This document shows, one piece after another, positions 1,196-9,759 of a stretch of 19,007 nucleotides of DNA; position 1 is the first letter of the stretch, and each line of letters opens with the position of its first letter. A program made the translations under genes and the position numbers. Source of the stretch: Rhodothermales bacterium (GTDB lineage: Bacteria; Bacteroidota; Rhodothermia; Rhodothermales; VXPQ01); assembly GCA_040904565.1 (NCBI GenBank), contig JBBDTI010000070.1:1-19007 (forward strand), given 5' to 3'. The notes beneath the pieces are model-generated. The model was not told the DNA's origin and made no database searches. It saw only the letters and a program-made list of their open reading frames with translations.

Positions 1196-1717
1196 ATGAA
1201 GCGTCTCCTCATCATGGCGGGTGTAGCAGCCGTTGTCGTCGGCGTCTTCCTACTGGGTATCCAGACGCTGAAGGTTCTCGATGCAAGGAGAGAAACGTCC
1301 GCGCTGCGCTCCGTGCTTCCCGACGCAGATCTGGTCGACGCGGACGGACTTCCGACACGGATTCCCTCCGGATCCGCCGGCGGTACCGTCGTCGTCTTCT
1401 TTACGACGACGTGCGAGTATTGCCGCGCAGAGATCGCAGCGATGACCCGGCATGCGAAAGCCTTCGGGGATGCCGACGTCGTCCTGATATCTCCGGAGGA
1501 TCGACGGCGCCTCGACGCGCTGAATCGGGAATTCCAACTGGACGGCCTACCTCGGTTCTGGGTGCTTCGCGATACGATACCCGGTCTTGGACGCCGGCTA
1601 CGCATTCGGCTCGTCCCAACCGTGCTTGTTTACGATAGCGGGGGGCGACTCCAGCACGAATTTGAAGGGTGGACGCCTGTTGAGACCATTCTCCGGACCA
1701 TGAAGGGGGCGCCATAA
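1196..1717 (+). CDS. Membrane-anchored thioredoxin-fold protein (TlpA/redoxin-like, CxxC)
   Basis: N-terminal signal/TM anchor (MKRLLIMAGVAAVVVGVFLLG), beta-strand plus active site VVVFFTTTCEYC, and cis-Pro-type loop LVPTVLVYD. Stop overlaps the next start (TAATG). Confidence 0.85.
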   Translation: MKRLLIMAGVAAVVVGVFLLGIQTLKVLDARRETSALRSVLPDADLVDADGLPTRIPSGSAGGTVVVFFTTTCEYCRAEIAAMTRHAKAFGDADVVLISPEDRRRLDALNREFQLDGLPRFWVLRDTIPGLGRRLRIRLVPTVLVYDSGGRLQHEFEGWTPVETILRTMKGAP

Positions 1718-3816
1718 TGCTCGGGCGTGGTCGAACGAATACACAGGTTCGTCAGGCACAACGGTCCATCGTCCGACAGTTCGACGAGGCCGACTGCGGG
1801 CCGGCGTGTCTCGCCTGGATCCTGCGCTATTTCGGTGGGGAAGGATCGATGGAGAGACTTCGTACGCTGTCCGGCACGACGGCGTACGGTACGACGATGC
1901 TCGGTCTCCATCAGGCAGCACGACACGTCGGCCTCGATTCCGCGGCGTACAGGGGCGACCTTCCCGATCTGTTCCAGCTCGACGAGCCTGCCGTTCTGCA
2001 CGTTACGATGCCCGGGAATCGGCAGCATTTCATGATTTGCTTTGGTTCTGCCGCCGGTCGCCTGATCGTGGGTGATCCAGCGACGGGCGTGTCTCGAATG
2101 ACGCCGGAGGCACTGGGGGCCGTCTGGAAGAGTCGTGCACTCATCATCCTCACGCCGAACGCCCGATTCCAGAGCCGCCGTCAGAAGGCCGTCGCAAAGC
2201 GGCAATGGTTGCTCTCGGCCGTGCGCGAGGATGCACCCGTCTTACTGCTGTCCACGCTGATCGGGGCCGTCATATCCGTATTCGGACTCGCGCTCGCCAT
2301 CTTTTCCAGAGAGTTGATCGATGATATCCTGCCAAGACGAGATGTCTCAAAACTCCTCGTAGGCATCGTGCTCCTTTTCCTCGTTCTTGTCCTGCAGGCA
2401 GGCGTGAGTGTGGTACGCACCCTGCTTCTGCTCAGACAGGCCCGAGACTTCAACATCCGCATCACGAATCGTTTCCTGGCCGAGCTCCTGCGTCTGCCCT
2501 TCACCTTCTTCAGTTCACGTAAGACAGGCGATCTCATCGCCCGCCTGAACGACACCGAACGCCTCCAGCAGGCCGTAACGGACGTTCTGGGAAATATCGT
2601 CGTCGACGGTCTTGTGGTGGCGGTCGGATTCTTTTTCGTCATGTTCTACAGCGTCCCTATCGCCGTGGCCCTCGTTCTGTTGCTCGCGGTGATGGGCGTT
2701 TCGACGCGCCGCTTCCATCACCCGATCGTGAAGGGGCAGCATCGAATGATGGCCGCTCATTCGATCAACAAGAGCGGCTACGTAGAGGTTATTCAAGCTG
2801 TCGAGACGATCAAGTCAAGCAACGCGGAGGCTCACTATGCCCGATGGATGGAGGAGACGTACGCACGCTTGCAGCATGAAATATTCAGGTTGGGGAAGCT
2901 CGGAATAGCCTTCTCGGCGACGGTCGACCTCGTCGGAGCCGCTGCCGTTGTGGGCGTGCTTTCCTGGAGCTCCTTTCTCGTGCTCGATGAATCGATCGGT
3001 CCGGGATCTCTCGTTGCCCTGCTCCAGATAGCCGGTATGATCGTTCAGTCGGCCAGAAATCTGGCTACGGCAAACGTTCGATTTCAGGAAGCTTCCGTTG
3101 CATTCGATCGCATGTTTCAGCTGACCTCACTGGAGCCGGAATACAACCCGAACGTAGAGGCGACTAAACGCTCGGTGCGCGTGGTTCACGGGCTAACGGT
3201 GGAAGACCTCCGCTTTCGGTATCCCGGTCGCGATCCGCTGTTCGAACACGTCTCCTTCGATTGTCGGTGCGGCGATCTCCTTCTGCTGATTGGACGAACC
3301 GGATCCGGTAAGTCGACTCTCCTGAAAATCCTTCAGCGGTTGCTCCATCCCGAGTCGGGCCGCATTCGGGTAAATGGCCGAGATTGGCTTGACTATTCGA
3401 TGCAATCGTGGCGGGACGCGGTCGGGGTCGTTCCGCAACACGTTCGGCTGTTTAGCGGAACGCTTCTCGACAATATTTGCCTCGGCCGATCCCTCGACCC
3501 CGATGAACTGGTGGAGCGATGCAATCGATTCGGATTGCAGCATTGTTTTGAGGGCCTTCCTGCCGGCTACGCCACGGTCGTAGGCGAGGGAGGCGTGGGC
3601 CTCTCCGGAGGTCAGCGCCAGCTCGTCGGCCTCGCGAGAGCCCTCGTCCGTCCATCCAGGATCCTCCTCCTCGATGAACCTACCGCCGGCATGGACGACG
3701 AGACGGCCGAATTCGTGAGGCAGCTGATCGACCGAATCCGGTGTGGGAAGATCGTCATCGTAGCCTCGCACGCATCAACATTTCGGCCCCACGCGAATTG
3801 TACGTACCGGATGTAG
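1717..3816 (+). CDS. Peptidase-containing ABC transporter (PCAT; C39 peptidase + TMD + ATPase; SunT/LanT/ComA type)
   Basis: C39 motifs QFDEADCGPACL (catalytic Cys), QHFMI (His) and IVGDPA (Asp). TMD contains FFSSRKTGDLIARLND. Walker A GRTGSGKST, signature LSGGQRQ, Walker B ILLLDEPT, H-loop ASH. Confidence 0.95.
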   Translation: MLGRGRTNTQVRQAQRSIVRQFDEADCGPACLAWILRYFGGEGSMERLRTLSGTTAYGTTMLGLHQAARHVGLDSAAYRGDLPDLFQLDEPAVLHVTMPGNRQHFMICFGSAAGRLIVGDPATGVSRMTPEALGAVWKSRALIILTPNARFQSRRQKAVAKRQWLLSAVREDAPVLLLSTLIGAVISVFGLALAIFSRELIDDILPRRDVSKLLVGIVLLFLVLVLQAGVSVVRTLLLLRQARDFNIRITNRFLAELLRLPFTFFSSRKTGDLIARLNDTERLQQAVTDVLGNIVVDGLVVAVGFFFVMFYSVPIAVALVLLLAVMGVSTRRFHHPIVKGQHRMMAAHSINKSGYVEVIQAVETIKSSNAEAHYARWMEETYARLQHEIFRLGKLGIAFSATVDLVGAAAVVGVLSWSSFLVLDESIGPGSLVALLQIAGMIVQSARNLATANVRFQEASVAFDRMFQLTSLEPEYNPNVEATKRSVRVVHGLTVEDLRFRYPGRDPLFEHVSFDCRCGDLLLLIGRTGSGKSTLLKILQRLLHPESGRIRVNGRDWLDYSMQSWRDAVGVVPQHVRLFSGTLLDNICLGRSLDPDELVERCNRFGLQHCFEGLPAGYATVVGEGGVGLSGGQRQLVGLARALVRPSRILLLDEPTAGMDDETAEFVRQLIDRIRCGKIVIVASHASTFRPHANCTYRM

Positions 3817-4112: not shown

Positions 4113-4457
4113 TCATGCATCATTGCGGTCGTGGACGTATTTCGCAATCTGCACGCGTTCGGTGGTAATGAGTCCCTGACGGACGACGGTGTCTAGATAC
4201 TCAAGGAGACGCACCACCCTTTCCTCGGCGTCGACGATCTCAATCACCACGGGCAAATCTTCCGAGAGCCGGAGCCATTTCGCAGAGTGAATGCGGCTGG
4301 CCGCGCCGTATCCCATGATGCCCCGAAGCACCGTAGCTCCGGCAACGCCCAGTTCGCGTGCTTTCAGCACGATCTGCTCATATAGCGGCTTTCCGTCCAG
4401 CCGGTCCGATTCACCGATGTAAATTCGGATTAGAATCCCCTCTTCGGGTAGCGTCAT
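4113..4457 (-). CDS. DUF190 family (PII-like) protein
   Basis: RIYIGESDR..KPLYEQIV..GVAGATVLRGIMGYG..RIH..LSEDLPVVIEIVD is the DUF190 pattern. Start overlaps the crcB stop (ATGA), the known crcB-DUF190 pairing. Confidence 0.92.
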   Translation of the reverse strand: MTLPEEGILIRIYIGESDRLDGKPLYEQIVLKARELGVAGATVLRGIMGYGAASRIHSAKWLRLSEDLPVVIEIVDAEERVVRLLEYLDTVVRQGLITTERVQIAKYVHDRNDA

Positions 4458-4846
4458 GAGCCACCTCCAAGTGCGGTAAGGAAACGCACCAGCATCAACC
4501 CGAGCACGACGGCAAGGATTCCACCCACGTTGCTGGCCAGCACGTTGACGATCGCCAGAGAGATTTCCCCGCCGCGGAAGAGGTTGATCGTTTCTATGCC
4601 GAACGTAGAAAACGTTGTGAACGCGCCCAGTATCCCGGTGAGAATGAACGTGCGCGACGCAGGTGAGGCGGATGAGCCTTCAACGAGTGCCCAGACGATG
4701 CCGATGAAGAAACAGCCCAGGATGTTGACGGCCAACGTTCCCCAGGGAAAGGATGGACCGAGGATGCGATAGGCGACACCCGATACGGCATATCTCATGA
4801 GCGCACCAACGGCCCCGCCCGCACTGACGAGTAAAATTATCTGCAT
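4454..4846 (-). CDS. crcB: Fluoride efflux channel Fluc/CrcB
   Basis: Motifs GGAVGALMRY, FPWGTLAVNILGCF and TGILGAFTTFSTF; 4 TM segments in 130 aa. Confidence 0.96.
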   Translation of the reverse strand: MQIILLVSAGGAVGALMRYAVSGVAYRILGPSFPWGTLAVNILGCFFIGIVWALVEGSSASPASRTFILTGILGAFTTFSTFGIETINLFRGGEISLAIVNVLASNVGGILAVVLGLMLVRFLTALGGGS

Positions 4847-4883: not shown

Positions 4884-4912
4884 ATGATACGGTGCGCCCG
4901 GGATGAGGTCTA
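4884..4912 (-). promoter_or_regulatory. Candidate sigma70 promoter for crcB-DUF190
   Basis: Minus strand TAGACC (4912-4907), 17 nt, TATCAT (4889-4884). Lies between the osmC-like terminator and the crcB ATG. Confidence 0.5.
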
Positions 4913-4932
4913 CCGTCACAAATCCCGTTGTC

Positions 4933-4974
4933 AAACAAAGAAGCCCCCGGTGCAGGCTCGACACCGGGGGCTTC
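4933..4974 (-). terminator. Intrinsic terminator after the OsmC-like gene
   Basis: Perfect 13-bp stem GAAGCCCCCGGTG / CACCGGGGGCTTC with a 9-nt loop, followed by TTTGTTT on the - strand, 15 nt after the stop codon. Confidence 0.9.
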
Positions 4975-4989
4975 GCCGTTGAAGACGGA

Positions 4990-5529
4990 CTACCCTGCCG
5001 TAACGGTACCCTTTGCACCGACCAGTTCCGTCTGGACGTCCAGTGGCCTGGTCAAGATGCTCCCGACAGGAGACGTTTTCAGAACGTGATCGTGCAGCTC
5101 CTGCAGCTCCTCATCCGACGCGTCGGCGTCGAGATGAACGCGCGTCCTTATTCTACTGAATCCGGCAGGCGTCTCGTCGGACAGCCCGAAGAAGCCGGCC
5201 AGGTCCAGGTCTCCCTCTACCTCGACGCGGATCTCGTTTACCGTGATTCCTCGCACGGAAGCATTCAACGAGTAGCCGACGGTAAGACACGAACCGTAGG
5301 CTGCCAGGACCTGCTCCACCATGTTCGGCGCCGTGTTCGTTCCACCGAGTTGTTCGGGCTCGTCCATCTCCACCGCATGATCCCGGATGACGTTGTGACA
5401 CTGGAATCCACCCTTCCAGGTTGTGACGGCCGCCCATACGGTCTGGCCCGCATCCGGATTGTCCTTCACGTGATTCACGAGACCGAGGCAATCAGCCACG
5501 GGTACGCCGTTGAGCTTTTGATCTGACAT
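4990..5529 (-). CDS. OsmC/Ohr-like family protein (single conserved Cys subtype)
   Basis: Motifs MDEPEQLGGTNTAPNMVEQVLAAYGSCL, EGDLDLAGFFGL..PAGF and KTSPV. Start placed at ATG 5529 (MSDQKLNGV), because the longer ORF-track start at 5598 lies in a terminator U-tract. Confidence 0.9.
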   Translation of the reverse strand: MSDQKLNGVPVADCLGLVNHVKDNPDAGQTVWAAVTTWKGGFQCHNVIRDHAVEMDEPEQLGGTNTAPNMVEQVLAAYGSCLTVGYSLNASVRGITVNEIRVEVEGDLDLAGFFGLSDETPAGFSRIRTRVHLDADASDEELQELHDHVLKTSPVGSILTRPLDVQTELVGAKGTVTAG

Positions 5530-5591
5530 TGAAAGGTTTTGCAGTTTGAGGGATAGATCGTGAAAGCGACCGCACCTAACAGGTGCGCCTG

Positions 5592-5631
5592 AAAACAAAA
5601 AAAGCCCGCCACCTGCAAGAGGTGAGCGGGC
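5592..5631 (-). terminator. Attenuator terminator in the 5' leader of the OsmC-like gene
   Basis: Minus strand GCCCGC(T)CACCT-CTTGC-AGGTGGCGGGC followed by TTTTTTTGTTTT. It lies about 60 nt upstream of the osmC-like ATG on the same strand. Confidence 0.88.
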
Positions 5632-5694
5632 CTGACAACTTGAATCCGTCCTGGATTACGTCGTGTCTACCATGCTACACTCGCCTCCCGCAGG
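5612..5694 (-). promoter_or_regulatory. Antiterminator helix, mutually exclusive with the 5592-5631 terminator
   Basis: Minus strand CCTGCGGGAGGCGAGTG (5694-5678) pairs with CGCTCACCTCTTGCAGG (5628-5612): 13 Watson-Crick pairs, 3 G-U pairs and 1 mismatch. The partner covers most of the terminator 5' arm, its loop and part of its 3' arm. Confidence 0.75.
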
Positions 5695-5763
5695 AACGCC
5701 GTAACAGCGATGACAGGGCATCGCCGCACAACACATATCCCGACAGGTCACGAACCGCGGCAT
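5656..5763 (-). CDS. Cys/Met-rich leader peptide (35 aa, MPRFVTCRDMCCAAMPCHRCYGVPAGGECSMVDTT)
   Basis: 6 Cys (all TGT) and 4 Met in 35 codons. It contains the antiterminator 5' strand, and its stop lies 24 nt before the terminator stem. An alternative start at ATG 5736 gives 26 aa. Confidence 0.65.
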   Translation of the reverse strand: MPRFVTCRDMCCAAMPCHRCYGVPAGGECSMVDTT

Positions 5764-5971
5764 CGGATGAAGAAGTAATCTGGTAGGCTGGCGTATAACA
5801 CGTCGCTTGCCAGCTATATATGTAATGCACGCACGTCTCGATGGCAACGGCGCGGCGCGGTGGTAGCGCTTCCATTATGTATAATTCACAAAATATGGAG
5901 ACGCGTTCGTCCGAATTCCGATATCGCGGGACCATATTGGACCTGTACACCCGATTCACAGAGGTAAGCAG

Positions 5972-6730
5972 ATGGACGGTGACGACACGCGCTTGACGGG
6001 CGGAACGCGGACGACGCGAATCGCCATGGTCCTTTTCGTAGTTCTGTTGCTCGTTCTCGCCGGACGAGACCTTTTCCTGCCTGCCCGAAACGATACGACG
6101 TATGCCACGGGGCCCGGCGAATACACCGAATTTACGCTTCCTGACGGCAGCGAAGTTCGACTCAACGTGGCCGGGAGATTGAACCTCCCGGTGGAGTTCG
6201 GTACGGGCCGTCGCGTCGTAACGCTCGATGGTGAAGCGTATATAGACGTGACGTTCGACCCACGGCAGCCGTTCGTAGTGGAAACGGAGCGGATGCGCGT
6301 GCTTACGCGGGGCGCGACGTTCGACGTGCGAGACTACAGGGAGGATGCCACGGCATCCGTCATCGTCTCGGAAGGGTCCGTTCTCGTGCGGACTCCCGCG
6401 GCGGAGCGATCTCTGGGACCCGGCTGGCGCGCTAGGGTGGATGATGGGGGTCTTCGGGTCGACTCGGTCGGTGTCGCGGACGCGCCGGCCTGGCTTAAGG
6501 GCGGTCTCGCTTTTCGTGACGACTCGCTAGGGGAAGTGGCCCGCCGGCTGACACGCTGGTACGGCGTTCCCGTCGATCTGGCCCATCCACCGCTCGATTC
6601 CTTGCGGCTGACGGCCGACTTCTATGGCGAATCGGCCTCCGAAACCTCGGAGGAGATAGCCGACCGACTCGGCCTTGAGGTCGAGATCGAGGGTGAACGT
6701 ATCCTGTTCGTTTACCCGGAACGTCGATAA
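5972..6730 (+). CDS. FecR family protein (TM + periplasmic FecR and C-terminal domains)
   Basis: Motifs TGPGEYTEFTLPDGSEVRLN, RVVTLDGEAYIDV..PFVV, VIVSEGSV and AWLKGGLAFRDDSLGEVARRLTRWYGV. SD-like AGAGGT lies upstream of the ATG. Confidence 0.92.
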   Translation: MDGDDTRLTGGTRTTRIAMVLFVVLLLVLAGRDLFLPARNDTTYATGPGEYTEFTLPDGSEVRLNVAGRLNLPVEFGTGRRVVTLDGEAYIDVTFDPRQPFVVETERMRVLTRGATFDVRDYREDATASVIVSEGSVLVRTPAAERSLGPGWRARVDDGGLRVDSVGVADAPAWLKGGLAFRDDSLGEVARRLTRWYGVPVDLAHPPLDSLRLTADFYGESASETSEEIADRLGLEVEIEGERILFVYPERR

Positions 6731-6870: not shown

Positions 6871-6930
6871 ATGGCTTCGGCGTGTGATGGCTTTGGCGTG
6901 TAGCGGCTTCGGTTTCGGCGTGTGGCGGCT
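6871..6930 (+). repeat. Imperfect ~16-nt tandem repeat
   Basis: ATGGCTTCGGCGTGTG / ATGGCTTTGGCGTGTA / GCGGCTTCGG(TTTCGG)CGTGTG / GCGGCT. Confidence 0.7.
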
Positions 6931-7038
6931 ACTGCCGGTATCGCAGGTTGTTCGATACATAGTCCGCGTGTCGCATCCAGCCACGATATCCCCCGCGTTC
7001 CCTATCGCTTTCAGCCCTGCTCGCAAAAACACACCGTG

Positions 7039-9759
7039 ATGCTCCAAGCTTCGAAGGCCGTATCGACGGTCAGGCACCTCGCGCTCTGGATTGCGGTGGT
7101 CGCCGTATCCGTTCCGGTCGTTGAAGCCCAGTCGCTGGAGACGGGCGAACTGAGGCATACGGAGGACGCCGAAGCCGCGGAGCCGGCGGCCCGGCTCGTT
7201 TCAGCCAGGCCGCTGCAAGGGGGCGTCATCGTGGACGGCGTCATCGACGAGCCGGCATGGGCTTCGGCCGTCTATATCGACACATTCACGCAGCGCGATC
7301 CGATCGAAGGGGCCGAGCCGACCGAACGTACGGAGGTCGCTGTCCTCTACGACCACGAGGCCGTCTACATTGCGGCACGCATGTACGACAGCGCGCCGGA
7401 TTCGATCGTGGCACGGCTGGGACGGCGTGACGCGGAACTCGAGTCAGATCGCTTTGCGGTCTTCCTCGATCCTTATCTCGATCGCCGAAGCGGCTTCTAT
7501 TTCGGACTCAATGCGGCGGGAACGCTGTATGACGGCGTGCTGCTGAACGATAGCTGGGATGATTCGGATTGGGACGGGGTCTGGGAGGGGAGCGTGTCGC
7601 GGACGGATGACGGCTGGGTCGCCGAAATGCGCATTCCCTACTCGCAGCTCCGATTCTATAGAAGGGATCGATACGTGTGGGGCGTCAACTTTCTACGTGA
7701 GATCTCACGAAAGCAGGAGCGGGACTTCCTCGTGTACTCGCCGCGAAATGAAAGCGGCTTTGTGAGCCGCTTCTGGGATCTCGTCGGCATGCGAGACATC
7801 GAGCCGAAACGCCAGCTCGAAGTCGTGCCATACATCACCACGCGTGCGGTATACGACGAGACGGTTGGACCGGGAAACCCTTTAAACGACGGCTCGCTCT
7901 ACGGGTTGGATGCAGGGGCCGACGTACGCCTGGGCCTCACGCCGAATCTCACGATGAATGCGACCGTCAATCCAGACTTCGGACAGGTCGAGGTCGATCC
8001 GGCCGTGATCAATCTCAGTGCCTTTGAAACGTTTTTCTCAGAAAAGCGCCCCTTTTTCATCGAAGGCTCATCGCTTTTCGAAAATTTCGGGTACGGTGGG
8101 TCGGACAATAACTGGGGATTTAACTGGGGGAACCCACGTTTCTTCTACAGTCGCAGAGTCGGCCGCTCCCCCTCCGGGCCGCTGCCGGATCACGAGTTTT
8201 CGCGCCTGCCCGATGCCACGCGCATCCTGGGTGCAGCGAAAGTGACGGGTAAGATAGCCGGCAGTTGGAACGTTGGGACGATCCAGGCGCTCACCGCCGC
8301 CGAGAAGGCCCGGCTCATTCAGGATCGCCGCCGCTTCGAGGCGGACGTAGAGCCGGCGACGTACTTCGGCGTGTATCGTGCTCAGAAGGAGTTCGCTGAA
8401 GGACGCCATGGCGTCGGCGTACTTTCCACGATGAACAACCGATTCTTCACGAGTGACCGGCTGCGGGATGCCATGAACCAACGCTCGTTCGCCGTCGGAC
8501 TCGATGGCTGGACGTTCGTCGGACCATCCAGGACATGGGTCGTTAATGGGTGGACGGGGGCGTCTTACGTGAACGGGACAGAGGCACGGCTCCTTCAGAT
8601 ACAGGAGAGCCCGCTCCATTACTTCAACCGGCCGGATGCGGATCACGTCTCGCTCGACAGCAGCGCGACGTCGATGAGTGGTTGGTCCGGACGTCTGGCC
8701 CTCAACAAGCAGCGCGGCCGCGTGATCGTCAACGCCGCACTGGGAGCCATCTCACCATCATTCGACGTGAACGACGTGGGATTTCAGTGGCGCTCGGACG
8801 TGATTAACGGACACCTGGGCGTCGGGTATCGCTGGCCGGATCCGGGTCCGTTTACCCGCAGTGCGACGCTGATCTCAGCCGTGTTTCGAAGCATCGACTT
8901 CTCCGGAAATACGACCTGGGCCGGCGTATGGGGAGTGGCAGACGTCGAACTGCTCAATTATTACCGATTGGAGACCCGCGTGGCGGTGAATCCAGAAACG
9001 GTCAGCACGACGAGCACGCGAGGCGGGCCCCTCATGCTGAATCCTCCCGGGGTCCAGGCCGGAGTTCGAGCTTCGACGGATCGTCGAAAGAATCTCGTGT
9101 TTGGCGCCGGCATCGACACGTATCTGTCCGACCGGAACCGCTCCCTGGACTTTAACCTCGAAACGGAATGGAAGCCGGCGGCCAACGTTTCGCTTACGTT
9201 GAATCCGACCGTTTCCTTTAACGACCAGCACGCTCAGTGGGTGGATGCCTTCGACGATCCGCATGCGACCTCCACCTTCGGGAAGCGGTACGTCTTTGCG
9301 GAGCTGGATCAGATTACGGTTTCTTCGAGCGTACGACTCAACTGGACGTTTACACCGAAACTGAGCTTTCAGCTATATGCGCAGCCGCTCATCTCGGCAG
9401 GCAATTACCGCAATTATAAGGAGCTCGCTCGTCCCAGGTCGTTTGAATTTACTCGCTATGGGGAAGAGGGTACTACCTTCGATCCGGTCACGAGAGAGGC
9501 GGATCCGGACGGACCGGCCGGGCCCGCCGCGCCCATAGAGGTTCCTGCGCTCGATTTCAACGTGGCATCGCTCCGGGGTACAGCTGTAGTACGGTGGGAA
9601 TACCAGCCGGGATCGACGATTTATTTCGTGTGGACGCAACAACGCTCCGACTCGTCGACTTACCCCCATTTTGCATTTCGGCCTTCCTTCGAGCAGCTTC
9701 GAGCGGCACCGATGGAGAACGTCTTTGTCGTCAAGCTTACGTACTGGTTCAACCCGTAG
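7039..9759 (+). CDS. DUF5916 / CBM9-like domain protein, predicted secreted or outer-membrane beta-barrel
   Basis: Signal peptide after ATG 7039. CBM9-like N-terminus (IVDGVIDEPAW, GWVAEMRIPYSQLRF, WGVNF) and the hallmark NATVNPDFGQVEVD..INLSAFETFFSEKRPFFIEG..FYSRRVG. Ends in the OMP-like VVKLTYWFNP. The ORF-track start at 6922 is probably too early. Confidence 0.85.
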   Translation: MLQASKAVSTVRHLALWIAVVAVSVPVVEAQSLETGELRHTEDAEAAEPAARLVSARPLQGGVIVDGVIDEPAWASAVYIDTFTQRDPIEGAEPTERTEVAVLYDHEAVYIAARMYDSAPDSIVARLGRRDAELESDRFAVFLDPYLDRRSGFYFGLNAAGTLYDGVLLNDSWDDSDWDGVWEGSVSRTDDGWVAEMRIPYSQLRFYRRDRYVWGVNFLREISRKQERDFLVYSPRNESGFVSRFWDLVGMRDIEPKRQLEVVPYITTRAVYDETVGPGNPLNDGSLYGLDAGADVRLGLTPNLTMNATVNPDFGQVEVDPAVINLSAFETFFSEKRPFFIEGSSLFENFGYGGSDNNWGFNWGNPRFFYSRRVGRSPSGPLPDHEFSRLPDATRILGAAKVTGKIAGSWNVGTIQALTAAEKARLIQDRRRFEADVEPATYFGVYRAQKEFAEGRHGVGVLSTMNNRFFTSDRLRDAMNQRSFAVGLDGWTFVGPSRTWVVNGWTGASYVNGTEARLLQIQESPLHYFNRPDADHVSLDSSATSMSGWSGRLALNKQRGRVIVNAALGAISPSFDVNDVGFQWRSDVINGHLGVGYRWPDPGPFTRSATLISAVFRSIDFSGNTTWAGVWGVADVELLNYYRLETRVAVNPETVSTTSTRGGPLMLNPPGVQAGVRASTDRRKNLVFGAGIDTYLSDRNRSLDFNLETEWKPAANVSLTLNPTVSFNDQHAQWVDAFDDPHATSTFGKRYVFAELDQITVSSSVRLNWTFTPKLSFQLYAQPLISAGNYRNYKELARPRSFEFTRYGEEGTTFDPVTREADPDGPAGPAAPIEVPALDFNVASLRGTAVVRWEYQPGSTIYFVWTQQRSDSSTYPHFAFRPSFEQLRAAPMENVFVVKLTYWFNP

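What the first reader, a model, noticed from the sequence alone, without database searches (positions are those of the whole stretch)
5530..5763. Apparent cysteine (sulfur amino acid)-sensing leader-peptide attenuator controlling an OsmC-like gene
Seen on the - strand: (a) a 35-aa uORF, 5763-5656, MPRFVTCRDMCCAAMPCHRCYGVPAGGECSMVDTT, with 6 Cys and 4 Met; (b) a 9-bp hairpin over the central codons (5704-5727, GCGGCGATG/CATCGCTGT); (c) a 17-nt segment at codons P24-C29 (5694-5678) complementary to the terminator 5' arm and loop (5628-5612; 16 of 17 positions pair); (d) a strong intrinsic terminator 24 nt after the stop and about 60 nt before the osmC-like ATG. Established: this is the trp/his-type attenuator layout, and Cys-rich leader peptides are known for cysteine-synthesis genes in Actinobacteria. 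Inference: stalling at C7/C11/C12/C17 under Cys limitation frees the antiterminator and allows read-through, whereas fast translation lets the terminator form. I do not know of such an attenuator on an OsmC-family gene or in this lineage. It would tie this OsmC subtype to sulfur starvation. Caveat: stalling at C20 or C29 would partly cover the antiterminator.
Basis: partly seen in the sequence, partly recalled or inferred. Interest (0 to 1): 0.9.

Follow-up and report, generated by a model that had tools for sequence, protein, structure and literature searches.

The report
Cysteine-sensing leader before OsmC-like gene
A short cysteine-rich reading frame and a transcription stop signal sit in front of an OsmC-like gene and most likely switch it on when cysteine runs short, as similar leaders do for this bacterium's cysteine-synthesis genes.

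Summary

- **Orthologs:** a Cys-rich uORF plus intrinsic terminator lies directly upstream of 7 of the 21 close orthologs (at least 62% identity). It lies upstream of 0 of 59 more distant ones, and there were 0 background hits in 418,702 nt.
- **Peptide versus RNA:** leader peptides are only 18-47% identical while the OsmC proteins are 61-83% identical. A conserved CCTGC..AGG box is read in two frames.
- **Same genome:** poly-Cys leaders with terminators precede cysM-mec-cysO/moeZ, cobA-cysH-sirC and sulfite reductase. 19 of 23 cysM-type loci in the order carry one.
- **Folding:** a ribosome placed on the early Cys codons lowers the terminator's advantage by 11.6 kcal/mol, against 1.9±2.1 in shuffles, 0 of 60 reaching it.
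- **Weak points:** there are no RNA data. The closest ortholog shows no modelled switch. The best-duplex test for the antiterminator gives only p≈0.06.

The mechanism is textbook and Cys versions are in print. The OsmC-like target and these lineages are new.

The parts
5862..5873 (-). 12-nt near-perfect palindrome (GGAAGCGCTACC), a possible operator 14 nt upstream of the -35-like hexamer
   Evidence: The same box with the same 14-nt spacing to a TTGCC/TTGAC hexamer stands in L002 and, with one extra base, in L004 (my reading). The exact palindrome occurs once in the 4.02-Mb genome. Function is inferred.
5819..5847 (-). Sigma-70-like promoter candidate: TTGCCA (5847-5842), 17 nt, TACATA (5824-5819)
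   Evidence: Read by eye. Counterparts are TTGCCT-17-TAATTA in L002 and TTGACT-17-TATGAT in L004. It was not found by the consensus scan, and there are no TSS data.
5656..5763 (-). Leader ORF, 35 codons plus TAA; Cys at codons 7, 11, 12, 17, 20, 29; Met at 1, 10, 15, 31
   Evidence: No Pfam match.
5738..5763 (-). Region 1 (leader nt 1-26, holding the start codon and Cys-7), which pairs with region 2 in the MFE fold
   Evidence: MFE structures. The 1:2 duplex is -20.1 kcal/mol. Positions 5719-5753 are unchanged in the variant contig.
5697..5733 (-). Central hairpin over codons 11-23 (core 9 bp at 5727-5704)
   Evidence: The two substitutions of the variant contig inside the core hairpin fall in its loop.
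5678..5694 (-). Region 2, the antiterminator strand (codons 24-29), holding the conserved CCTGC..AGG box
   Evidence: 16 of 17 positions pair with 5628-5612, dG -27.4. It forms in the MFE of the transcript cut before the terminator's 3' arm. The box recurs in L002, L008, L054, L094 and L055.
5643..5657 (-). Small spacer hairpin (5 bp) between the stop codon and the terminator
   Evidence: It is conserved with L002. The variant contig changes only its loop.
5592..5631 (-). Intrinsic terminator: stem-loop 5631-5604 (regions 3 and 4), then a U-tract from 5603
   Evidence: dG -21.6 to -22.2. There are no substitutions in its stem in the variant contig.
4990..5529 (-). OsmC-like gene (179 aa)
   Evidence: PF02566, E 1.3e-17. 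NF041052 OsmC-related (seleno)protein scores 61.9 bits, below its cut-off of 95. PDB 2opl_A, 'hypothetical protein', E 2.7e-30.
4940..4974 (-). Strong terminator after the OsmC-like gene, which closes the unit before crcB
   Evidence: 14-pair stem followed by T-rich tail. A promoter-like site at 4912-4884 follows it.

Best explanation
The 5' leader of the OsmC-like mRNA is a ribosome-mediated transcription attenuator that reads the supply of charged tRNA-Cys.

Proposed steps, all inferred from sequence:
1. Transcription starts upstream of 5763, and a ribosome loads on the 35-codon leader ORF.
2. When Cys-tRNA is plentiful, the ribosome runs through. Region 1 (5763-5738) or the passing ribosome keeps region 2 (5694-5678) occupied, so the terminator 5631-5604 forms and most transcripts end at the U-tract.
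3. When Cys-tRNA is scarce, the ribosome stalls at Cys codons 7, 11 and 12 (and 20). This breaks the 1:2 pairing and leaves region 2 free to pair with the terminator's 5' arm, its loop and the first bases of its 3' arm.
4. The terminator then cannot form, and RNA polymerase reads into the OsmC-like gene.

The gene is thus a fourth member of a leader-peptide cysteine regulon in this genome. The other members are cysM-mec-cysO/moeZ, cobA-cysH-sirC and sulfite reductase.
For: Shown by tools:
- **Elements present and above background:**
- **Comparative recurrence:** 7 of 80 ortholog loci with at least 200 nt of upstream DNA carry a Cys-rich uORF plus terminator within 260 nt of the gene. All 7 are among the 21 loci of at least 62% identity. 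There were 0 further hits in 418,702 nt of the same loci on both strands.
- **Constant spacing:** from stop codon to T-run is 52-65 nt in all 11 leaders.
- **No room for a promoter:** in L004, L008, L054 and L094 the T-run lies only 25-36 nt from the OsmC start. There the gene can only be reached by read-through.
- **The peptide is not conserved but the RNA is.** Leader peptides are 18-47% identical against 61-83% for OsmC. WIN and L002 leaders align at the DNA level in their 3' half although the stop codon has shifted frame. The CCTGC..AGG box is read as Pro-Ala-Gly in WIN and L002 and as Thr/Ala-Cys in L008, L054 and L055 (my reading).
- **A natural variant:** a contig about 87% alike carries 17 substitutions in 5604-5753. 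None falls in the 51 stem positions of the three hairpins ((99/150)^17 is about 0.0009). By my reading it loses Cys-17 and Cys-29 and gains Cys-21.
- **Same genome:** leaders with runs of 5, 5 and 9 Cys codons plus terminators precede Pfam-confirmed cysteine and sulfate-assimilation operons. 19 of 23 cysM-type loci in relatives have such a leader, and so does the sulfite reductase of G003. trpE and pheS carry WWW and FFF leaders.
- **Folding with a ribosome mask:** the terminator's advantage falls from 13.5 to 2-7 kcal/mol with the ribosome on Cys-7, -11, -12 or -20. In a more permissive model it changes sign, from +4.3 to between -2 and -6 at codons 2-13. The drop of 11.6 compares with 1.9±2.1 in shuffles, 0 of 60 as large. 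L008, L004 and the cysM leader also gave 0 of 60, and L054 0 of 40.
- **Sulfur context of the gene family:** PF01053 lies downstream in leader-bearing L055 and upstream in L063 (its upstream neighbour clusters by BLAST with L064's; L065 and L067 carry the same C-terminal stretch by my reading). SBP56 lies upstream in L007 and MOSC downstream in L056.
Against: - No RNA run holds this DNA, so there is no TSS, 3'-end or read-through evidence.
- The best-duplex test for the 2:3 pairing in the window is only p 0.06. It is not significant in 8 of the 11 leaders tested.
- The closest ortholog, L002, shows no modelled switch: drop 0.3, with 34 of 40 shuffles as high. L058 (6 of 40) and the sulfite-reductase leader (23 of 40) also fail in the strict model.
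- The window's leader has scattered Cys codons with one tandem pair, not a run of 5-9. Cys-17 and Cys-29 are badly placed.
- 14 of the 21 close orthologs have no leader.
- OsmC-family proteins are not known cysteine-pathway enzymes.
- The 74 nt between T-run and ATG in the window could hold a promoter of a type that the scan does not cover.
- The equilibrium folding ignores kinetics and the bulk of the ribosome.
Confidence: 0.8

Rival explanations
1. The small ORF is an independent gene for a Cys-rich peptide (metal-binding, redox-active or a modified-peptide precursor) with its own terminator. The OsmC-like gene is transcribed separately.
For: The ORF is open, Cys-rich and followed by a strong terminator. 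A C39-peptidase ABC exporter lies about 2 kb away on the other strand. In the window 74 nt separate the T-run from the ATG.
Against: Peptide identity among orthologous leaders is 18-47%, with no fixed Cys spacing. The stop codon shifts frame between WIN and L002 while the DNA stays alignable. In the variant contig, by my reading, all but one of the changed leader codons are non-synonymous. In four orthologs only 25-36 nt separate the T-run from the OsmC start. There is no Pfam match.
Confidence: 0.07
2. The leader senses something other than Cys-tRNA through the nascent Cys-rich peptide or the RNA. Candidates are a metal, an oxidant acting on thiols, or general sulfur amino-acid supply including Met-tRNA.
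For: Met is enriched too: 18 of 263 internal residues in the seven OsmC leaders (6.8%) against 2.0% in this genome's small ORFs, binomial P 7e-6. OsmC-family proteins are commonly called peroxidases (PMC5069961, passages seen).
Against: There is no conserved peptide motif that could act as an arrest or ligand-binding sequence. The same layout with pure Cys runs serves cysteine operons in this genome. No known riboswitch is detected.
Confidence: 0.07
3. A constitutive or protein- or Rho-modulated terminator stands here, with a fortuitous ORF. The Cys codons play no role.
For: GC-rich leaders give strong chance duplexes: 2:3 p 0.06 in the window, and not significant in 8 of 11 leaders. A conserved palindrome upstream suggests that a transcription factor also acts here.
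Against: Cys-rich ORFs followed by terminators were found nowhere else in 418,702 nt of control sequence. In the whole genome they occur only before sulfur genes and this gene; the other candidates were judged by eye to be coding regions, and two of them were looked at.
Confidence: 0.05

Closest known systems
Leader-peptide transcription attenuators of amino-acid operons (trp, his, pheST type of enterobacteria)
   Same: A short ORF enriched in codons of one amino acid, mutually exclusive 1:2, 2:3 and 3:4 helices, and an intrinsic terminator before the regulated gene. The same genome has WWW (trpE) and FFF (pheS) leaders.
   Different: The regulatory codons are Cys. The regulated gene is an OsmC-family protein, not a biosynthetic enzyme or a tRNA synthetase. 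No Rfam leader family matches.
Polycysteine leaderless short ORFs of mycobacteria (Canestrari et al. 2020, bioRxiv 10.1101/834739; passages and section 9 read)
   Same: Cys-codon-rich uORFs form a cysteine regulon that is controlled locus by locus, and their peptides are poorly conserved apart from Cys.
   Different: There the control is translational (the Shine-Dalgarno of the next gene is sequestered), with no intrinsic terminator, and the Cys tract lies at the 3' end. Here a classical terminator and antiterminator are present. 'OsmC' does not occur in the main text of that paper. Its Table 1 is an image and the supplements were closed.
uORFC-8-2 motif upstream of cysS in Rhodobacterales (Brewer et al. 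2021, PMC8632094; passage read)
   Same: A uORF with tandem Cys codons inside a stem, followed by a terminator-like stem and a U run. It is interpreted as ribosome-mediated attenuation.
   Different: It is found only before cysS in one alphaproteobacterial order and has two tandem Cys codons at a fixed place. Here the gene, the lineages and the sequence differ, and there are 5-9 Cys codons.
Candidate Cys leader peptides of Actinobacteria (Seliverstov et al. 2005, PMC1262725; passages read)
   Same: Runs of Cys codons in short ORFs upstream of cys and cbs operons.
   Different: No terminator hairpins were found there, and a Rho-dependent mechanism was proposed. Here strong intrinsic terminators are present.
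SAM-V riboswitch-controlled osmC of 'Ca. Pelagibacter ubique' (Smith et al. 2016, PMC5069961; passages read)
   Same: An OsmC-family gene is wired to sulfur status by an RNA element in its leader. It was the most induced transcript under sulfur limitation (50-fold).
   Different: The sensor there is a SAM-binding riboswitch that acts on translation. Whether the two OsmC proteins belong to the same subfamily was not tested here.

Membership tests
Ribosome-mediated (leader-peptide) transcription attenuator | Short ORF in the 5' leader, enriched in codons for one amino acid | tested here: met
   6 Cys in 35 codons. Only 65 of 17,626 small ORFs in the genome have at least 6 Cys.
Ribosome-mediated (leader-peptide) transcription attenuator | Intrinsic terminator between the leader ORF and the regulated gene | tested here: met
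   Stem 5631-5604, dG about -22, followed by T7. A terminator is present in all 7 orthologous leaders.
Ribosome-mediated (leader-peptide) transcription attenuator | Antiterminator helix that excludes the terminator | tested here: met
   16 of 17 positions pair, dG -27.4. It forms in the MFE before the 3' arm is made. The best-duplex test against shuffles gives only p 0.06. It is clear in L008 (p 0.007) and unclear in L002, L054, L055 and L058.
Ribosome-mediated (leader-peptide) transcription attenuator | Regulatory codons placed so that a stalled ribosome frees the antiterminator (anti-antiterminator 1:2) | tested here: met
   The masked-ribosome model gives a drop of 11.6 kcal/mol, with 0 of 60 shuffles as large. 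This is an equilibrium model only. L002 does not show it.
Ribosome-mediated (leader-peptide) transcription attenuator | Read-through responds to the supply of the cognate charged tRNA | not testable with these tools
   No RNA run holds the region. This needs an experiment.
Ribosome-mediated (leader-peptide) transcription attenuator | The regulated gene belongs to the metabolism of the sensed amino acid | tested here: inconclusive
   OsmC-like proteins have no known role in cysteine synthesis. Orthologs do sit next to PF01053, SBP56 and MOSC genes, and the other Cys leaders of the genome precede cys genes.
Mycobacterial polycysteine LL-sORF translational attenuators | No terminator; the Cys tract pairs with the Shine-Dalgarno of the next gene; leaderless mRNA | tested here: not met
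   A strong intrinsic terminator is present. No Shine-Dalgarno-like sequence stands before the OsmC start in the window (my reading). The TSS is unknown.
Known riboswitch or leader families of Rfam 15 (SAM classes, T-box, His/Trp/Thr/Leu leaders and others) | Covariance-model match at the gathering score | tested here: not met
   0 matches in the window. Nothing was listed over 5530-5970 at E up to 10. 0 matches in 9 related loci, 23,100 nt.
OsmC/Ohr family (PF02566), for the regulated protein | Pfam OsmC domain | tested here: met
   64.5 bits against a cut-off of 27.5.
OsmC/Ohr family (PF02566), for the regulated protein | Two catalytic Cys at the canonical places (the second in a C-P-V context; this feature is recalled, not taken from a call) | tested here: inconclusive
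   Invariant Cys in 5 aligned orthologs are C44 and C81. The S-P-V stretch has Ser at 153, as has PDB 2opl. No alignment to a characterised OsmC was made.

The most novel reading that the evidence does not exclude
This OsmC subfamily (relatives of PDB 2opl, with invariant Cys-44 and Cys-81) is a working part of sulfur and cysteine economy rather than a general stress peroxidase. It travels between phyla as a self-contained cassette of leader plus gene, because a tRNA-reading attenuator needs no dedicated regulator in the new host. The leader may read Met-tRNA as well as Cys-tRNA. With the poly-Cys leaders of cysM, cysH and sulfite reductase, it defines an order-wide cysteine regulon run by classical terminator attenuation, which I did not find described in print.
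Probability: 0.3. Interest if true: 0.72.

Novelty: new member of a known kind. Interest (0 to 1): 0.6.

Why it matters
- **A testable function.** It gives a hypothesis (induced by cysteine shortage, linked to sulfur metabolism) for an OsmC subfamily whose only solved relative is filed as 'hypothetical protein'.
- **Wider range for the mechanism.** Classical terminator-type cysteine attenuation appears to be used across a whole bacterial order for cysM-type operons, and in single genomes here for cobA-cysH and sulfite reductase. The five literature searches named under Tried and rejected found Cys-codon attenuators only for mycobacteria and other Actinobacteria and for cysS of Rhodobacterales.
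- **A parallel in SAR11.** There an osmC gene is tied to sulfur limitation by a different RNA sensor, which suggests convergent wiring.
- **Annotation.** Leader peptides of this kind allow regulons to be read from sequence alone in uncultured organisms.

Tried and rejected
**Riboswitch or known leader family: rejected.** Rfam gave nothing.

**Fluoride riboswitch before the downstream crcB-DUF190 pair: considered.** No Rfam match.

**RNA evidence: none available.** No RNA holder was listed for window 4900-6000.

**Best-duplex test: low power.** Comparing the best uORF-to-terminator duplex with dinucleotide shuffles separates poorly in these GC-rich leaders: 3 of 11 leaders at p up to 0.06. I replaced it with the masked-ribosome model.

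**Multiple alignment of the eight leader 3' parts: too rough.** Mean column identity was 57%. No covariation count or covariance model was attempted, and R-scape-type evidence is therefore missing.

**Search for more leader-bearing orthologs near the Acidobacteriota MAG.** Only that genome itself, 1 of 201, has the gene. In the window's own order 5 of 285 genomes have it.

**Cys leaders before cysH in G003, G004 and G028 and before cysK-like genes of G285 and G286.** None was detected in the loci fetched. L136 starts at a contig end, and cysH is the second gene of its operon.

**The palindrome 5873-5862 as a shared operator of the cysteine regulon: rejected.** The exact box is unique in the genome.

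**Protein tree.** Leaderless close homologs form one supported clade (98/92). The leader-bearing ones are an unresolved grade, so neither one origin nor several is shown.

**ESM Atlas.** It only repeated 'OsmC family'.

**Rows dropped.**
- From: L046, L096 and L099 (partial matches without the N-terminus), L003/L051 (cut by a contig end), and 6 loci with under 200 nt of upstream DNA.
- From: L123 and L124 (matches at contig starts).
- Some leaderless loci look like the same contig fetched twice (equal contig lengths). L054 and L094 are near-copies.

**Literature searches behind 'not found in print'.** Subscription journals are mostly outside that library. Supplements and Table 1 of the mycobacterial paper could not be seen.

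Full report
**What is there.**
On the - strand the window holds one compact unit. In order it has:
- a 35-codon ORF, 5763-5656;
- a strong intrinsic terminator, stem 5631-5604 with T7 from 5603;
- 74 nt of spacer;
- an OsmC-like gene, 5529-4990 (PF02566, E 1.3e-17);
- a second strong terminator, 4974-4940.

crcB (4846-4454) and DUF190 (4457-4113) follow, behind a promoter-like site of their own. A FecR-type gene starts divergently at 5972.

**Check of the observation.**
- The uORF has 6 Cys and 4 Met.
- The hairpin 5727-5704 has 9 bp (dG -12.0).
- 5694-5678 pairs with 5628-5612 at 16 of 17 positions, 3 of them G.U. Duplex dG is -27.4, against -22.2 for the terminator.
- The terminator starts 24 nt after the stop.
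- The 168-nt leader folds better than its shuffles (z -2.72, 2 of 200).
- No Rfam family matches.

**Comparative evidence.**
The OsmC-like protein is rare. It was found in 5 of 285 genomes of the window's own order and in 1 of 201 in the order of an Acidobacteriota MAG that carries it.

I fetched 41 loci from species genomes and 46 from metagenomes. One fixed detector was used: an ORF of at most 55 codons with at least 5 Cys, ending 30-95 nt before a T run that follows a hairpin of -15 kcal/mol or better.
- It found such a leader within 260 nt upstream of the gene in 7 of 80 loci that had at least 200 nt of upstream DNA.
- All 7 are among the 21 loci of at least 62% identity to the window's protein. 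None is among the 59 below 60%.
- There was no other hit in 418,702 nt of the same loci on both strands.
- The carriers are G003 (same family), G028 (another family of the order), an Acidobacteriota MAG (L008) and four metagenome contigs, two of them near-copies.
- From stop codon to T run is 52-65 nt in all leaders.
- In four of them only 25-36 nt separate the T run from the OsmC start. That leaves no room for a separate promoter.

**The RNA is conserved, not the peptide.**
- Leader peptides are 18-47% identical where the adjacent OsmC proteins are 61-83% identical. For WIN against L002 the figures are 31% and 82%; for L008 against L058, 18% and 83%.
- WIN and L002 leaders align at the DNA level through the central hairpin core, a CCTGC..AGG box, the spacer hairpin and the terminator. 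The L002 ORF nevertheless stops earlier, in another frame.
- The box is read in one frame in WIN and L002 and in another in L008, L054, L055 and L058 (my reading).
- A second contig, about 87% alike, in the DNA runs that hold this region carries 17 substitutions between 5604 and 5753.
  - None lies in the 51 stem positions of the central, spacer and terminator hairpins; chance is about 0.0009.
  - Five lie in the loops of those hairpins.
  - By my reading of the table it changes Cys-17 to Arg, Tyr-21 to Cys (making a tandem 20-21) and Cys-29 to Gly. Codons 4-15 are unchanged.
  - Two changes weaken and one strengthens the 2:3 pairing, leaving 14 of 17.
  - The stretch from terminator to ATG is the most variable.
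  - This rests on one low-depth contig, seen partly again in a second run of the same study.

**The same genome uses this device for cysteine genes.**
Among 17,626 small ATG ORFs, 197 have at least 5 Cys. Scans for those followed by a strong terminator gave, besides the window, three loci with runs of 5, 5 and 9 Cys codons (the last opens with GTG). Pfam confirms what follows them:
- a tetrapyrrole methylase, a PAPS reductase and the siroheme synthase N-domain;
- a nitrite/sulfite reductase;
- a PLP cysteine-synthase-type enzyme, a JAB peptidase and a ThiS-ThiF-rhodanese fusion.

The remaining candidates looked like parts of ordinary coding regions; two of them were inspected.

In relatives, 19 of 23 cysM-type loci examined have a poly-Cys uORF, G000's own included, and 18 of these have a hairpin and T run. 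The four without are the hits of 44-57% identity. G003's sulfite reductase has one as well. The genome also has a WWW leader before trpE and an FFF leader before pheS. Leader-peptide attenuation is therefore an established habit of this organism. None of these leaders matches an Rfam family.

**Mechanism: inferred steps.**
In the MFE fold, leader nt 1-26 (region 1, with the start codon and Cys-7) pair with nt 69-92, which cover region 2. They enclose the central hairpin that carries Cys-11, -12, -17 and -20, and the terminator stands apart. If the transcript is cut before the terminator's 3' arm, region 2 pairs with the 5' arm and loop instead.

I modelled a ribosome as 28 unpaired nt around each A-site codon. 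I then compared ensembles with the terminator forced and with it excluded.
- **Strict model.** The terminator's advantage is 13.5 kcal/mol without a ribosome. It is 4, 7, 4 and 2 with the ribosome on Cys-7, -11, -12 and -20, 14 on Cys-17, 17 on Cys-29 and 12 at the stop.
- **Permissive model.** Here the 3' arm may pair elsewhere. The values are +4.3 without a ribosome, -2 to -6 at codons 2-13, and +3 to +7 from codon 23 on.
- **Shuffles.** The maximal drop of 11.6 compares with 1.9±2.1 in dinucleotide shuffles of the upstream part, 0 of 60 as large.

| Leader | Drop (kcal/mol) | Shuffles as large |
|---|---|---|
| WIN | 11.6 | 0 of 60 |
| L008 | 13.1 | 0 of 60 |
| cysM leader (C79) | 8.7 | 0 of 60 |
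| L004 | 7.6 | 0 of 60 |
| L054 | 6.0 | 0 of 40 |
| L055 | 3.8 | 2 of 40 |
| cysH leader (C83) | 4.8 | 2 of 40 |
| L058 | 2.7 | 6 of 40 |
| L002 | 0.3 | 34 of 40 |
| sulfite-reductase leader (C84) | 0.2 | 23 of 40 |

In the permissive model all but L058 move in the expected direction, L002 only weakly. These are equilibrium figures without kinetics or steric limits. They show that the parts are arranged as in a trp-type attenuator, not that it works.

**Why an OsmC-like gene?**
Neighbours of orthologs point to sulfur chemistry.
- In leader-bearing L055 the gene is followed by a PF01053 Cys/Met PLP enzyme.
- In L063 a PF01053 gene precedes it and an ABC permease follows. L064's upstream neighbour clusters with L063's by BLAST. 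L065 and L067 carry the same C-terminal stretch, by my reading.
- L007 has an SBP56 selenium-binding-protein homolog upstream, L056 a MOSC protein downstream, and L057 a solute-binding protein downstream (a weak match, below Pfam's cut-off).

The protein keeps two invariant Cys (44 and 81) in five aligned orthologs. Its best solved relative is 2opl, 'hypothetical protein', and it scores below cut-off for NCBIfam's 'OsmC-related (seleno)protein'.

In SAR11, osmC was the transcript most induced by sulfur limitation (50-fold), and it lies behind a SAM-V riboswitch (PMC5069961, passages seen). I did not test whether that protein is of the same subfamily.

**Other layers.**
Upstream of the uORF a 12-nt palindrome (5873-5862) stands 14 nt before TTGCCA-17-TACATA. 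L002 and L004 keep the box, the 14-nt spacing and a sigma-70-like hexamer pair, although the flanks differ (my reading). The exact box is unique in the genome. A transcription factor may therefore add a second control.

Met is enriched in the OsmC leaders: 18 of 263 internal residues, against 2.0% background, P 7e-6. This remains unexplained.

**Known and new.**
Already in print:
- leader-peptide attenuation as a textbook mechanism;
- Cys-codon uORFs in mycobacteria, which are translational and have no terminator (10.1101/834739);
- candidate Cys leaders without terminators in Actinobacteria (PMC1262725);
- a cysS leader with tandem Cys codons and a terminator in Rhodobacterales (PMC8632094).

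Seven full-text searches found no description of Cys leaders before cysM, cysH or sulfite-reductase operons outside Actinobacteria, or before an OsmC-family gene. The library misses most subscription journals, and supplements were closed.

**Verdict.**
The finding is real, and the reading 'cysteine-sensing attenuator' is the best supported (about 0.8). It is a new member of a known kind. It has a useful by-product, namely an order-wide leader-peptide cysteine regulon and a functional lead for an uncharacterised OsmC subfamily.

Noticed in passing
G000 contigs: C79:76891-76727 (-), C83:73088-73249 (+), C84:44405-44218 (-): Three poly-Cys leader ORFs (runs of 9, 5 and 5 Cys codons), each with an intrinsic terminator. 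They stand upstream of cysM-JAB-ThiS/ThiF/rhodanese, of cobA-cysH-siroheme synthase and of sulfite reductase. 19 of 23 cysM-type loci in relatives of the order have such a leader.
   Followed up: yes
G000 C83:14077-14172 (+) and C36:8258-8311 (+): A leader ORF with WWW before trpE (Chorismate_bind, Anth_synt_I_N) and one with FFF before pheS. Each is followed by a terminator. They look like classical Trp and Phe attenuators in the same genome.
   Followed up: partly
window 5862-5873 (-); L002 about 17-28; L004 about 2307-2295 (-): A conserved palindrome (GGAAGCGCTACC type) stands 14 nt upstream of a sigma-70-like -35/-10 pair in three orthologous leaders. The exact box is unique in the genome. 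It may be a binding site for a transcription factor.
   Followed up: partly
window 4113-4846 (-): A crcB-DUF190 pair lies directly downstream of the OsmC terminator, with a promoter-like site at 4912-4884 and no fluoride-riboswitch match in Rfam. In G003 a DUF190 gene again follows the OsmC-like gene.
   Followed up: partly
window 5972-6730 (+): The FecR-type protein has only 252 aa and starts about 17 residues before its membrane helix. No sigma-factor gene stands upstream of it. A DUF5916 protein follows (6922-9759). The usual N-terminal anti-sigma part seems to be missing.
   Followed up: no
window 1196-3816 (+): An AhpC/TSA-thioredoxin-like ORF (1196-1717) ends where an ABC exporter with an N-terminal C39 peptidase domain begins (1717-3816). 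This is a bacteriocin-type export module. No precursor peptide was identified.
   Followed up: no
window 5450-5753, runs X1 and X2: A second contig, about 87% alike (depth about 5), shows that a related strain or species with a diverged leader lives in the same samples. Its sequence departs completely from the window upstream of 5753.
   Followed up: partly
the seven OsmC leaders (WIN, L002, L004, L008, L054, L055, L058): Met codons are about three times enriched inside the leader ORFs (18 of 263 against 2.0% background). The poly-Cys cysM leaders mostly lack this, by my reading.
   Followed up: partly
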